In this document: one piece after another, positions 1,015 to 35,066 of the stretch
Layout of the letters: each line of letters opens with the position of its first letter
Numbering within the stretch: the stretch's first letter is position 1
IMG/VR virus record: IMGVR_UViG_3300046779_000236
Coordinates: 1 to 35,792 of that record
From: a virus
Lineage: Duplodnaviria; Caudoviricetes
Strand: one strand, 5' to 3'
DNA length: 35,792 nucleotides
Notes under the pieces: model-generated
Told to the model about the DNA's origin: nothing
Database searches by the model: none
Seen by the model: the letters and a program-made list of their open reading frames with translations, nothing else
Translations under genes and position numbers: made by a program

Positions 1015-1296
1015 ATGTCAAAATATGCTCGCAGGGTGGACATCAATCAGAAAGCCATAGTTGAACATCTAAGAGCTATGGGAATGTCAGTATTCCATCT
1101 GCATGAAGTTGGCAAAGGCTGTCCAGACCTATTGGCTGGCATGAATGGTCAGACTTACCTTATAGAAGTCAAGAAAGATTCTAAGGCTTCATTCACTCCG
1201 CAGCAGATAGAGTTCCAAGGAAACTGGAAAGGCTCTCCAGTAATTCGTATAAATTCAGTAGAAGAAGCTATTGCATTTGTAAAAAATATGGTTTAA
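1015..1296 (+). CDS. PD-(D/E)xK nuclease, VRR-NUC / Holliday-junction-resolvase-like
   Basis: R-V-D-x-N-Q ... G-C-P-D-L ... L-I-E-V-K ... T-P-Q-Q-x-x-F motif pattern; start set at ATG 1015. Confidence 0.75.
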   Translation: MSKYARRVDINQKAIVEHLRAMGMSVFHLHEVGKGCPDLLAGMNGQTYLIEVKKDSKASFTPQQIEFQGNWKGSPVIRINSVEEAIAFVKNMV

Positions 1297-1299
1297 TGT
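1271..1299 (+). promoter_or_regulatory. putative sigma70 promoter for the replication gene leader
   Basis: TTGCAT (1271-1276)-N17-TAATGT (1294-1299), directly before a structured leader. Confidence 0.5.
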
Positions 1300-1302
1300 A
1301 GC

Positions 1303-1390
1303 AGGAAGGCTAGGGCAAATTACCCGAAAAGTCGATTAGTCACCGACCTGCCAACCTTTTTTAATGTGACTACCTTTGACTAGGGAAAAT
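1303..1390 (+). ncRNA. candidate cis-regulatory structured leader RNA (three-way junction plus pseudoknot targets)
   Basis: P1 AGG-AA-GGC/GCC-AA-CCT; P2 GGG/CCC; P3 GTCG/CGAC; loop TAGTCAC complementary to GTGACTA (1366-1372) and TGACTA (1377-1382). Confidence 0.55.
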
Positions 1391-2140
1391 ATGAATTACT
1401 ATCCGTTCCATATAGGAGATTACATCTCCCACACAAGTCATCTTACTGATGCAGAAGATTTAGCATACAGAAGAATGATTGACTTGTATTATCAATCCGA
1501 ACAACCTTTTACAGATGTGGAATTTGTAGCTCGCAGAGTTAAATCCACACCTGAAATCGTCTCTGTTCTCTTGTCTGATTTCTTTGTGAAAACAGAAGAT
1601 GGATGGAGAAATAAGCGAGCTGATGAGGAAATTGAGAAGTATCATGCCAAGGCAGAATCAGCAAGAAATGCAAATAAAGCTAAATTGGAGAAGAAATCAG
1701 CTCTGAAATCAGAACTGAAATCAGAACCGAAACAGGATGCAACCAATAACCAAGAACCAATAACCAATAACCATAGTATAGAAGTCGCTAAAGCTCCCAA
1801 AGCTAAAAGATTGTCTTTAGAAGAATTGCCTAAAGAATGGGAAGATTTCTGCAAAAAAGAAAGACCAGACTTAAAACCACAATATATCTGGAATCAATTT
1901 AGAGATTATTGGATAGCTCAAGGCGGTCAAAAAGGAGCAAAATTAGATTGGTTTGCTACTTGGAGAAACTGGGTTAGAAACCAAAAATCACAAGCCATAG
2001 GAACAGTTGATAAGCCTACTATTCAATGGCATCAGACATTGGGTGGTGTAATGGCTAAAGGCAAGGAGTTAGGCATTGAACCAAGAGCAGGAGAAACAGA
2101 AGGTCAATACAGGCAAAGACTTATGTCAGCAGGAGCTTGA
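1391..2140 (+). CDS. phage replication initiator, DUF1376/YdaU family (functional analogue of lambda O)
   Basis: N-terminus MNYYPFHIGDYxxxTxHLxxxEDLAYRRMIDLYY; internal iteron-like repeats; C-terminal FRDYW...DWFATWRNWVRN domain; SD AGGG before ATG 1391. Confidence 0.85.
   Translation: MNYYPFHIGDYISHTSHLTDAEDLAYRRMIDLYYQSEQPFTDVEFVARRVKSTPEIVSVLLSDFFVKTEDGWRNKRADEEIEKYHAKAESARNANKAKLEKKSALKSELKSEPKQDATNNQEPITNNHSIEVAKAPKAKRLSLEELPKEWEDFCKKERPDLKPQYIWNQFRDYWIAQGGQKGAKLDWFATWRNWVRNQKSQAIGTVDKPTIQWHQTLGGVMAKGKELGIEPRAGETEGQYRQRLMSAGA
1693..1774 (+). repeat. iteron-like repeats, probable replication origin inside the initiator gene
   Basis: Three 12-bp units GAAATCAG(CTCT/AACT/AACC) at 1693-1728 plus a degenerate fourth; five 7-bp AACCAA(T/G)-type units at 1741-1774. 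Confidence 0.7.
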
Positions 2141-3859: not shown

Positions 3860-3965
3860 TAATTGCAGAACAAAGAAGCCTAAGCACACAGGATTTATGC
3901 AAAAGTTCAATAATGGGCTAAATCAGCGTTGGTTATGTATGGACTGTAAAGAAAAGATTGAATAG
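3786..3965 (+). CDS. small zinc-ribbon protein (59 aa)
   Basis: Manual translation MTYKKQ...LCDNC...RWLCMDCKEKIE; two CxxC pairs; below the ORF-track length cutoff. Confidence 0.6.
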   Translation: MTYKKQEPELTKKSIGKYQETRLCDNCRTKKPKHTGFMQKFNNGLNQRWLCMDCKEKIE

Positions 3966-4038
3966 CTTCTATAGTTAAATGGTATAACACTTGACTTGTA
4001 ATCATGGATTGGCAGTTCGATTCTGTCTAGAAGCACCA
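3965..4038 (+). tRNA. tRNA-Thr (anticodon TGT)
   Basis: Acceptor GCTTCTA/TAGAAGC; D arm GTTA/TAAC; anticodon loop CT-TGT-AA (TGT at 3997-3999); T arm GGCAG-TTCGATT-CTGTC; encoded CCA at 4036-4038; one mismatch in the anticodon stem. Confidence 0.92.
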
Positions 4039-5471: not shown

Positions 5472-6467
5472 ATGGCTGGATTGCTAGGCGGTGTATTACC
5501 TGCCATTTATTCTGGAGCAGACCAATTAAAGAGACAAGTCTATGGATTATTAACAAATCCTATGGAAATGGCTGAAAGAGCAGGTCAAAACCTATTGCAG
5601 TCTCATAATGAAAGACAGGCTTTAATGAGACAAGCTCATGGAGACCCTACAAATCCGCTAAAAATTACAGACAAAGATGCTTTTAATGCTTTGACATCAC
5701 AAGTTATGGCAGGTGAGTTAGGCTTTGCTCCTATGGGTATTACTGCTTGGCATGGAACTCCACACAACATCTCAGGTAAGTTTGATGTTTCTAAAATAGG
5801 TACTGGAGAAGGTAATCAGTCTTTTGGTTATGGAATGTATTTTGCTGAAAACCCAAATGTAGCATTATCCTACACAGGAAAAGAAGGCGTTAAACCTACA
5901 TCTGTAATATATCAAGGAAAATCATATCCTTATGAATCAGATGTTGCAAAATTATTAGTTGATGTTAATAAATTTGGTAAAGAAGAAGCAAAAAAACTAT
6001 ACCCTACTCAAACTAAATTTATTGATGAAGTAAAGCCTATGGAAATAGGTTTTCAATCTGGTAATTTATACAAAGTAGACATTCCTGATAATGATATTCC
6101 AACAATGATGAATTGGGATAAACCACTAGGTGAACAATCTGATTTTGTTAAAAAAGCTATTAATAATTTAAAGAAGCAAGTTACTCCTGAGATGAAAGAT
6201 GAGTTAGGTGGTGACTTAAACTTATTATTTGGTAAAGATATAACTCCTGCACAATTCTTAAATACTTGGGAAATTATCCACCCTACAGGTGGAACAGGTA
6301 TTGGAGAAAAATTATTAAATGAGCAAGGTGTTAAAGGTATTCGATATTTTGACAATACAAGTAGAGATGCAGGTAAAGGCACTTCTAACTTTGTAATCTT
6401 TGACCCTTCTAATGTAAAGATACTAGAAAGAAACAATCAACCAATTGAAAGTTTGCTAGGAAACTAA
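5472..6467 (+). CDS. ADP-ribosyltransferase-fold protein (ART-PolyVal-like domain) with N-terminal leader
   Basis: AWHGT...F...IGTGEG...FGYGMYFAEN...NLYKVDI...GVKGIRY...NFVIFDP motifs; strong SD AGGAGAGG. Confidence 0.72.
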   Translation: MAGLLGGVLPAIYSGADQLKRQVYGLLTNPMEMAERAGQNLLQSHNERQALMRQAHGDPTNPLKITDKDAFNALTSQVMAGELGFAPMGITAWHGTPHNISGKFDVSKIGTGEGNQSFGYGMYFAENPNVALSYTGKEGVKPTSVIYQGKSYPYESDVAKLLVDVNKFGKEEAKKLYPTQTKFIDEVKPMEIGFQSGNLYKVDIPDNDIPTMMNWDKPLGEQSDFVKKAINNLKKQVTPEMKDELGGDLNLLFGKDITPAQFLNTWEIIHPTGGTGIGEKLLNEQGVKGIRYFDNTSRDAGKGTSNFVIFDPSNVKILERNNQPIESLLGN

Positions 6468-33111: not shown

Positions 33112-33465
33112 TTAAATTTCAGCTATTGGGTTAAAAAGCCAAGAAGCAGCTTCATCTGGTCTTGGTGTGAACTTATATGATTTCTTAATTGGTTCTCTTG
33201 CTTTTGGCTTTAATAATCTTGATGGCTTAACAACATCTGGAAAGTCCCCTGTCATATAGTGAACTGTGTAAGCTCCAATGTTATTTGTGCCATATCTAGC
33301 AATGTGTATCTTCTTTTTAATTCGTAACTCTGTAATGTATTTAGATACAGACTTTGGACTCATGTTTACAGCATCAGCCATTTGATGCACATTCATTGGC
33401 TCTTTTTGCATACGCAATAAAAGATAAGTAATTCTTTTTTCTTTTTGTTCGTCAATCTTTCTCAT
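33112..33465 (-). CDS. winged-HTH DNA-binding protein
   Basis: PMNVHQMADAVNMSPKSVSKYITELR...IHI motif; AAAGG SD. Confidence 0.75.
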   Translation of the reverse strand: MRKIDEQKEKRITYLLLRMQKEPMNVHQMADAVNMSPKSVSKYITELRIKKKIHIARYGTNNIGAYTVHYMTGDFPDVVKPSRLLKPKAREPIKKSYKFTPRPDEAASWLFNPIAEI

Positions 33466-34675: not shown

Positions 34676-34833
34676 TGCTCATTTCTCCATGCTAAGTGTT
34701 TGTAAGTCTGCCATTTTTCCTGAAATCTTTTATCTTCACTAGGTGGAGTCCAGCCTAGTTTCTTCAATGTTTCAACAATATTTGTTTTTGCTGCTGGAAC
34801 ATAGGGTTTATCAATATTATCTAAGTGGTTCAT
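34672..34833 (-). CDS. small hypothetical protein (53 aa)
   Basis: Manual translation MNHLDNIDKPYVPAAKTNIVETLKKLGWTPPSE...; ATGA overlaps. Confidence 0.65.
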   Translation of the reverse strand: MNHLDNIDKPYVPAAKTNIVETLKKLGWTPPSEDKRFQEKWQTYKHLAWRNEQ

Positions 34834-35066
34834 GCTTCCCTCGCTTTCATCATTGCATCTGCTATTTCATAAGACATTTCGGAAAGAATTTGTATGTCTA
34901 AATTCCAATCTAATCCTTGTCCTTCAATTTTTCCTCTATCACAAACTAATCCTTCCATAGCTTTAGCAGCAAAGTAATCTCTTAAATCCATGCCACCATG
35001 AGGAACTGGATTAAGAACATTAGGGTCATCACTATTTAATCTTTCTTGCCAAGGAAATGCTTTCAT
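34830..35066 (-). CDS. conserved phage hypothetical protein (GMxLRDYFAAKAM family)
   Basis: AFP...GMDLRDYFAAKAM...SYEIADAMMKAR motif; AAGGAG SD. Confidence 0.85.
   Translation of the reverse strand: MKAFPWQERLNSDDPNVLNPVPHGGMDLRDYFAAKAMEGLVCDRGKIEGQGLDWNLDIQILSEMSYEIADAMMKAREA

What the first reader, a model, noticed from the sequence alone, without database searches (positions are those of the whole stretch)
1271..1393. Three-way-junction leader RNA whose loop has two alternative pairing targets at the replication-initiator RBS
Seen: a promoter-like TTGCAT-N17-TAATGT precedes a compact fold: P1 1303-1310/1350-1357, P2 GGG/CCC, a GAAAA junction strand, and P3 GTCG/CGAC, followed by a T6 run. 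The P3 loop TAGTCAC (1337-1343) is the exact reverse complement of GTGACTA (1366-1372). Six of its bases also match a second copy, TGACTA (1377-1382), which abuts the SD AGGG of the DUF1376 gene (ATG 1391). Established: RNA pseudoknots and antisense loops control rep translation in IncI/IncB plasmids and immunity in P4 (CI RNA) and P1 (C4 RNA). Inference: an RNA-only switch controlling initiator synthesis. The terminated short RNA of about 60 nt could also act in trans as an immunity or incompatibility factor, which is notable because no CI repressor is visible.
Basis: partly seen in the sequence, partly recalled or inferred. Interest (0 to 1): 0.78.

Follow-up and report, generated by a model that had tools for sequence, protein, structure and literature searches.

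The report
Two-target leader RNA before replication initiator
In front of this phage's likely replication-starter gene lies a small three-armed RNA, a diverged form of a catalogued but untested motif, with a loop that matches both a nearby decoy and the ribosome-binding region, so it likely limits how much of the protein is made.

Summary
The fold and both loop targets are real. The element (1303-1369) is a diverged form of the orphan Rfam motif int-alpA (RF02996): full-length match, 26.4 bits, below the 35.8 cut-off; 13 of 20 picked relatives pass. About 4,100 stored viral stretches match its core pattern. In 145 non-redundant copies the P3 loop changes together with two downstream repeats (second-best match of 5 bp or more: 81 of 145, against 3% for swapped partners); two hold-out sets agree. 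Target 1 has H-type pseudoknot geometry and lies clear of the Shine-Dalgarno; target 2 overlaps it (78 of 108). Half of 76 genes behind viral copies are replication genes. Best reading: a cis switch that limits translation; the trigger is untested. P2 loops are self-complementary in 50 of 80 distinct loops, hinting at self-dimerisation, but weakly in this copy. A terminated immunity RNA is not supported: the U-run is poorly kept, and the leader coexists with Cro. This scan has noted the family on other DNA at least eight times. I found no functional study; the defining paper's supplement was unreadable.

The parts
1015..1296 (+). Upstream gene, Holliday-junction-resolvase-like nuclease; ends 6 nt before P1, so read-through transcripts could also carry the leader
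   Evidence: Pfam Hjc E 0.0011, below cut-off; phrog_93 endonuclease E 2e-13
1271..1299 (+). Possible weak sigma-70 promoter (TTGCAT-17-TAATGT; TTTAAT 1292-1297 is an alternative -10)
   Evidence: Seen in sequence; not called by the scan. Family-wide, a -10 box of 5/6 or better ends 6-21 nt before the core in 50 of 145 copies against 5 of 145 further upstream
1303..1357 (+). Three-way junction: P1 (1303-1310/1350-1357, 2x2 A/A loop), P2, GAAAA junction, P3; int-alpA-type core
   Evidence: Rfam RF02996 26.4 bits, model 1-71 of 71, E 0.0027, E 3.8e-5 per genome; covariation in P2 and P3
1313..1325 (+). P2 hairpin; 7-nt loop with a 4-nt palindrome (AAUU), a weak form of the family's self-complementary loop
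   Evidence: 50 of 80 distinct P2 loops hold a palindrome of 4 nt or more against 27% in shuffles; this loop's self-duplex is +0.2 kcal/mol
1331..1347 (+). P3 hairpin; loop 1335-1343 carries the anti-target UAGUCAC (1337-1343)
   Evidence: Sequence
1357..1362 (+). U-rich linker, probably the pseudoknot's connecting loop and not a terminator
   Evidence: No terminator call; T5 run in 28 of 145 copies and 12 of 47 kin
1366..1372 (+). Target 1 (decoy): 7 Watson-Crick pairs flush with the 3' end of the P3 loop; predicted H-type pseudoknot
   Evidence: Duplex -8.4 kcal/mol; geometry conserved; 4 of 7 pairs with compensatory changes
1377..1383 (+). Target 2: 6 Watson-Crick pairs plus a G-U, covering the first two bases of the Shine-Dalgarno
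   Evidence: Duplex -7.1 kcal/mol; 4 of 5 pairs with compensatory changes; overlap with the SD in 78 of 108 copies
1382..1393 (+). Shine-Dalgarno (AGGGA) and ATG of the DUF1376 gene
   Evidence: Sequence
1391..2140 (+). DUF1376 gene, probable lambda-O-like replication initiator
   Evidence: Pfam DUF1376; PHROG 'primosomal protein' E 6e-33; internal tandem repeats at 1693-1732 and 1741-1773 that look like iterons (the iteron reading is inference)

Best explanation
The element is a conserved three-way-junction leader of the int-alpA type whose P3 loop is complementary to two downstream repeats, and it likely works in cis as a translational switch on the probable replication initiator. Shown: the fold, the three-site covariation, and the positions of the two targets. 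Inferred: target 1 is made first and pairs more strongly, forming an H-type pseudoknot stacked on P3 that leaves the Shine-Dalgarno open (ON). When the loop slides by about one register onto target 2, it covers the Shine-Dalgarno (OFF). The most likely trigger, and the weakest step, is pairing of two transcripts through their self-complementary P2 loops, so that a high transcript level favours OFF and caps the protein's dose. The leader brings its own promoter and ribosome-binding site and heads many unrelated genes.
For: Rfam match with the same topology. Loop against its own downstream 50 nt in 145 non-redundant copies: second-best Watson-Crick run 4.66 nt against 3.17 for swapped partners; highest of 10,000 permutations 3.38; 5 bp or more in 81 of 145 against 3.1%. 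Hold-out sets with other P1 pairs: 18 of 32 and 11 of 27 against 5.0% and 2.3%. Of 125 copies with two runs of 4 bp or more, target 1 starts 10-16 nt after P1 in 113 and is flush with the loop's 3' end in 94; target 2 is shifted towards the 5' side in 76, the other way in 12. Target 2 overlaps the best SD match in 78 of 108; target 1 is apart from it in 99 of 108. Target 1 is the stronger duplex in 111 of 169, target 2 in 54. Stem mismatches are G-U 34 times and A-C 4 times (15 against 4 without the position fixed by the pattern), which points to + strand RNA. P2 palindromes: 50 of 80 distinct loops, 22 types, 0 of 2,000 shuffles as high; 15 of 25 loops seen only in the hold-out; P3 loops show no excess. 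GACG tetraloops, which link retroviral RNA dimers (PMC516450, passages), cap P2 in 15 of 300 copies.
Against: No expression or functional data. This copy's + strand folds no better than shuffles, and the - strand has the lower folding energy in 109 of 145 copies. In this copy the lowest-energy fold of 1295-1400 is a long hairpin that replaces the junction. The two duplexes differ by only 1.3 kcal/mol here. For the dimer trigger: only 14 of the 47 closest kin have a 4-nt P2 palindrome, yet all 47 keep both targets; 28 of 42 copies without a palindrome keep a second target. Twenty of 145 copies lack two 4-bp runs. Copies are related, so counts overstate independent events.
Confidence: 0.6

Rival explanations
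1. The same two-state leader, but gated by a small molecule or a host or phage protein that binds the conserved junction (riboswitch-like or protein-dependent), not by RNA-RNA pairing.
For: One exact 22-nt core occurs in 97 stretches of genomes from Proteobacteria, Bacillota, Planctomycetota, Acidobacteriota, Bacteroidota, Myxococcota and others. Both targets persist where the P2 palindrome is lost.
Against: The conserved bases were partly fixed by my search patterns. Downstream genes share no metabolic theme. It does not explain 22 kinds of P2 palindrome.
Confidence: 0.14
2. One reading: a terminated or processed 60-nt RNA accumulates and binds the targets of another transcript in trans, giving immunity or incompatibility.
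For: One loop and two targets would be saturated by one extra loop (inference). Loops are diverse: 179 kinds among 204 non-redundant copies. Precedent for a leader acting on its own mRNA: IsrK (PMC4825925, passages).
Against: U-run poorly kept (28 of 145; 12 of 47 kin); no terminator call. No integrase, CI or Cro among the ORFs scanned in a complete genome. The leader sits beside Cro/YdaS elsewhere. Loop diversity is also expected if the loop must track each gene's ribosome-binding region. None of the other 17 copies of the 6-mer target in the genome looked like a ribosome-binding site by eye.
Confidence: 0.1
3. An activator, as in IncI-alpha repZ: pairing keeps a weak ribosome-binding site open, and target 2 is only an intermediate during folding.
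For: In ColIb-P9 a loop pairs just upstream of the SD and turns translation on (PMC4705826, passages). Target 1 lies a median 19 nt before the start. In this copy an alternative hairpin buries the SD.
Against: Target 2 overlaps the SD itself in 78 of 108 copies, which would compete with the ribosome. No leader peptide of 20 aa or more runs through the element.
Confidence: 0.1
4. The three repeats and the P2 palindrome are DNA binding sites for a protein; the RNA fold is incidental.
For: Direct and inverted repeats near a promoter are typical of operators (general knowledge). Single-sequence folding is weak.
Against: G-U excess on one strand; compensatory changes in P2 and P3; target 1 keeps a fixed register against the loop's 3' end; the repeat sequence changes freely before homologous genes.
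Confidence: 0.05

Closest known systems
Rfam RF02996, int-alpA RNA motif (typed Gene; sRNA). That it comes from Weinberg et al. 2017 (PMC5737381) is recalled and echoed by earlier notes; 'alpA' does not occur in that paper's main text and its supplement was unreadable.
   Same: Same three-way junction, CUAG and CGAAAAG junction strands, CCUG exit and U-rich tail; full-length match. 19 of 20 picked relatives hit the model and 13 pass its cut-off.
   Different: This copy scores 26.4 against a 35.8 cut-off. The consensus line shown by cmscan ends near target 1 and shows no pseudoknot or second target. Of 137 downstream ORFs scanned, 1 is an integrase and none is AlpA; replication genes and nucleases dominate.
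IncI-alpha/IncB repZ pseudoknot with Inc antisense RNA (PMC4705826, passages)
   Same: A hairpin loop pairs with a sequence next to the SD of a replication initiator.
   Different: There the pseudoknot activates, needs a leader peptide, and is blocked by a separate antisense RNA. Here there are two tandem targets, no leader peptide, no Rfam match to those families, and G-U bias points to one sense RNA.
P4 CI RNA with seqA/seqC, and Gifsy-1 IsrK (PMC4825925, passages); P1 C4 RNA (recalled; Rfam RF01695 listed in PMC2864571)
   Same: A short RNA segment complementary to two sites in the same transcript that carries replication or antirepressor genes.
   Different: No match to these families. P4's two sites flank the RNA and it acts through termination after processing; here both sites lie downstream within 30 nt, at the ribosome-binding site, and no conserved terminator is seen.
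Retroviral dimer-initiation kissing loops, including GACG tetraloops (PMC516450, passages)
   Same: Palindromic or GACG hairpin loops, often with purines on the 5' side.
   Different: Analogy only. Dimerisation of this RNA was not tested, and this copy's palindrome is weak.

Membership tests
Rfam RF02996 int-alpA | Covariance-model score at or above the gathering cut-off (35.8 bits) | tested here: not met
   26.4 bits
Rfam RF02996 int-alpA | Full-length match with the three-stem junction | tested here: met
   Model positions 1-71 of 71; two non-standard pairs, both in P1; E 3.8e-5 per genome, 0 of 14 control genomes ring
Rfam RF02996 int-alpA | Conserved junction strands CUAG, CGAAAAG, CCUG | tested here: met
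   All three present
Rfam RF02996 int-alpA | Continuity with copies above the cut-off | tested here: met
   13 of 20 hand-picked loci (of 121) sharing the core pattern pass; scores run from 55.8 down to 27.2
Rfam RF02996 int-alpA | Upstream of integrase or alpA genes (read from the family's name) | tested here: not met
   DUF1376 here; 1 integrase and no AlpA among 137 downstream ORFs
Rfam RF02996 int-alpA | Whatever the original description says on pseudoknot or function | not testable with these tools
   Supplement too large to read
IncI/IncB repZ pseudoknot and Inc RNA | Match to the family models | tested here: not met
   No such hit
IncI/IncB repZ pseudoknot and Inc RNA | Leader peptide coupled to the initiator | tested here: not met
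   No + strand ORF of 20 aa or more through the leader; shorter ones not listed
IncI/IncB repZ pseudoknot and Inc RNA | Antisense RNA from the opposite strand | tested here: inconclusive
   No - strand promoter called in 850-1500; G-U bias favours +; the - strand folds well (z -3.2)
P4 CI / P1 C4 / IsrK immunity RNAs | Match to the family models | tested here: not met
   No such hit
P4 CI / P1 C4 / IsrK immunity RNAs | A discrete short RNA that acts in trans | not testable with these tools
   No RNA holder was listed; terminator signal poorly kept

The most novel reading that the evidence does not exclude
int-alpA-type leaders are RNA-only copy counters. Each transcript kisses an identical one through its palindromic P2 loop, and the dimer moves the P3 loops from the decoy onto the ribosome-binding site. 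A single sense RNA, with no repressor and no antisense gene, then caps replication initiators, primases and selfish nucleases in thousands of phages, with two loops setting self-identity.
Probability: 0.25. Interest if true: 0.82.

Novelty: new variant of a known kind. Interest (0 to 1): 0.5.

Why it matters
The fold is catalogued, but I found no functional study of it. The three-site covariation gives an orphan motif a concrete mechanism that three mutations can test. The family is large (about 4,100 stored viral stretches for one pattern) and spans several phyla. In the viral sample it heads core replication genes in 38 of 76 cases, so it may be a common way to set initiator dose. If the dimer trigger holds, it would be a sense-RNA counterpart to antisense copy-number control and a compact regulatory part with a changeable loop. 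The element in this window is one ordinary copy of that family.

Tried and rejected
Rfam at gathering level over the window: only a tRNA; the int-alpA match appears only below the cut-off. 'The leader replaces Cro or CI': first looked right (Cro/YdaS directly upstream in 0 of 9 loci with the leader and 18 of 41 scanned without it), then failed, since 9 of 19 ORFs picked by eye from 48 upstream of other leaders are Cro/YdaS. Intrinsic terminator: rejected. Further copies in this genome: none; next best 16.6 bits, E 0.17, with my own model. Other targets at ribosome-binding sites: none seen by eye among 17 other 6-mer copies. The long alternative hairpin and the 11-nt repeat between the P2 strand and the SD region looked particular to this copy on reading the kin; not counted. 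The - strand as the functional RNA: lower folding energy but disfavoured by G-U bias. G-U excess at target edges is slight (86 G-U to 71 A-C, against 967 to 1,324 for swapped partners). Sequencing runs: no RNA holder listed; no reads were laid. Named phages gave only DUF1376 matches under 60% identity; not followed up. Literature: 'int-alpA' in 2 papers, one a gene-order label and one an untested row in a small-RNA table; 'RF02996' in none; two mechanism searches found nothing on this RNA by title and abstract.

Full report
Observation. Four details need correcting. P1 pairs at 6 of 8 positions, with a 2x2 A/A loop. The first T of the T6 run closes P1, leaving T5. The promoter matches 3/6 + 3/6 and the scan called neither it nor a terminator. 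Alone, the + strand folds no better than shuffles (z -0.10); the drawn junction scores -11.2 kcal/mol against a minimum of -12.4. The case therefore rests on relatives.

Context. The window is a complete phage genome with direct terminal repeats. The downstream gene is DUF1376, matches PHROG 'primosomal protein' families and holds two tandem arrays. I read it as a lambda-O-like initiator; that is inference. Scans of the main ORFs (32, 35, 4 and 30 proteins, overlapping) show no integrase, CI or Cro. There is one copy of the element in the genome.

Identity. At gathering level Rfam finds only a tRNA. A core pattern taken from the window matches about 4,100 stored IMG/VR stretches, by the tool's estimate from 2 of 64 parts. 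Of 20 loci hand-picked from the 121 returned, 19 hit int-alpA and 13 pass the cut-off. An exact 22-nt core occurs in 97 stretches of genomes from several phyla. I file it as a diverged variant: it fails the score cut-off and the gene context in the name, and meets the structural features.

Covariation. Upstream of DUF1376 relatives the loop and both repeats change together. Pooling four locus sets gave 281 parsed elements, 241 unique with enough flank, and 145 below 80% similarity. The second-best Watson-Crick run between a loop and its own next 50 nt averaged 4.66 nt, against 3.17 for swapped partners; the highest of 10,000 permutations was 3.38. It reached 5 bp in 81 of 145 against 3.1%; 20 of 145 lacked two 4-bp runs. 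Two later scans with other P1 pairs served as hold-outs. After stem filters and removal of look-alikes, 32 of 120 and 27 of 121 loci remained, and 18 and 11 reached 5 bp against 5.0% and 2.3%. On an 18-row MAFFT alignment, 4 of 7 loop-target 1 pairs and 4 of 5 loop-target 2 pairs show changes on both sides. Most of those rows had been chosen for having two targets, so this count leans my way; the permutation tests do not. Copies are related, so none of these counts are independent events.

Geometry. Among 125 copies with two runs, target 1 starts 10-16 nt after P1 in 113 and pairs flush with the loop's 3' end in 94, as the second stem of an H-type pseudoknot would. Target 2 is shifted towards the 5' side in 76, the other way in 12, and ends a median 6 nt before the start codon (n = 115). 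It overlaps the best Shine-Dalgarno match in 78 of 108, while target 1 is apart from it in 99 (the SD consensus is recalled). Target 1 is the stronger duplex in 111 of 169; here -8.4 against -7.1 kcal/mol. A -10-like box precedes the core in 50 of 145 against 5 of 145 in a control window, so the element usually opens a transcript. Stem mismatches are G-U 34 times and A-C 4 times, or 15 to 4 without the pattern-fixed position. Against that, the - strand has the lower folding energy in 109 of 145 and in this copy (z -3.2).

Genes controlled. Of 76 ORFs behind the general viral set, 23 are DUF1376, 9 other initiators or loaders, 6 primase-like, 15 nucleases, 3 antirepressor or Rha, 1 integrase, 1 ParB, 2 tail and 16 unassigned (many ORFs cut by the flank). 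Replication genes are thus 38 of 76. The pattern came from this window, so the sample may lean towards its kin.

The P2 loop. Of 80 distinct P2 loops, 50 hold a palindrome of 4 nt or more, against 27% (sd 4) in shuffles, in 22 types; of 25 loops seen only in the hold-outs, 15 do; 15 of 300 copies have GACG. P3 loops show no excess (9 of 85). This fits kissing between identical RNAs. But this copy has only AAUU (self-duplex +0.2 kcal/mol), only 14 of its 47 closest kin have a 4-nt palindrome while all 47 keep both targets, and 28 of 42 palindrome-free copies keep a second target. Dimerisation is thus a family-level hint, weak for this copy.

The trans and immunity reading. A T5 run follows P1 in 28 of 145 copies and 12 of 47 kin; 79 of 145 have 5 T in 8 nt, which also fits a pyrimidine linker. 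Cro/YdaS lies directly upstream of 0 of 9 leader-bearing and 18 of 41 scanned leaderless DUF1376 loci, but 9 of 19 ORFs picked upstream of other leaders are Cro/YdaS, so the leader does not simply replace a repressor. With no integrase, there is no evident lysogen to protect. I give this reading 0.1.

Mechanism. Shown: fold, three-site covariation, target positions, palindrome excess. Inferred: loop on target 1 gives ON, loop on target 2 gives OFF, and the trigger is most likely self-dimerisation at high transcript level. Confidence is 0.6 for the cis switch and about 0.25 for the dimer trigger. The word 'decoy' is taken from earlier notes.

Comparison. In ColIb-P9 the pseudoknot activates repZ, needs a leader peptide and is blocked by an antisense RNA (PMC4705826, passages). 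P4 CI is processed and terminates transcription through flanking seqA and seqC; IsrK acts in trans on its own read-through mRNA (PMC4825925, passages). None of these families is matched. GACG and palindromic loops link retroviral dimers (PMC516450, passages); that is an analogy.

What is in print. 'int-alpA' occurs in 2 papers: a gene-order label (PMC13612085, passage) and an untested table row (PMC12370729, passage). 'RF02996' occurs in none. Searches on the mechanism returned nothing on this RNA, judged from listings. Of Weinberg 2017 (PMC5737381) I saw the abstract and passages; its supplement could not be read and may already describe a pseudoknot. I also saw passages of PMC2864571, PMC10724649 (references only) and PMC5795418.

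Verdict. A real, strongly covarying leader; a new variant of a catalogued orphan motif; mechanism testable and not found in print. This copy adds the replication-initiator context but is not itself unusual. Interest 0.5.

Noticed in passing
L001-L080 (DUF1376 relatives): The leader stands directly before the gene in 16 of 80 loci, duplicates included, and in 14 of the 16 best matches. L010 and L012 (84-86% identical over the first 128 residues) lack it. Of 43 leaderless loci examined, 29 have an upstream ORF ending within 13 nt of the start, so translational coupling may be the alternative way to set the dose.
   Followed up: partly
L071:2205-2304 (- strand): Carries the same leader as L007 but before a gene with a different N-terminus; the leader and its ribosome-binding site behave as a swappable module.
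   Followed up: partly
L491, L534, L558, L592, L602: A sub-branch with the same junction but short P3 loops, no clear targets, and a shared downstream motif next to the ribosome-binding site.
   Followed up: no
L144, L229, L294: Leaders before tail tube protein genes; in L144 a strong hairpin with a U-run lies between target 1 and the gene.
   Followed up: no
window 1693-1773: Two tandem arrays inside the DUF1376 gene (12-nt unit x3.3, 7-nt unit x4.7), the likely origin region.
   Followed up: partly
window 3965-4038: A single tRNA gene, tRNA-Thr(TGT).
   Followed up: no
window 5472-6467: 331-aa ORF before the terminase with a weak ART-PolyVal match (E 0.0036, below cut-off).
   Followed up: no
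window 33112-33465 and 34830-35066 (- strand): The only regulator-like ORFs seen: a weak helix-turn-helix (E 0.003) and a weak PHROG 'transcriptional regulator' (E 1.9e-4).
   Followed up: no
window 1-35792: Complete genome with direct terminal repeats, SU10-type portal, capsid and adaptor, Sak and YqaJ recombination genes, and no integrase among the ORFs scanned.
   Followed up: partly
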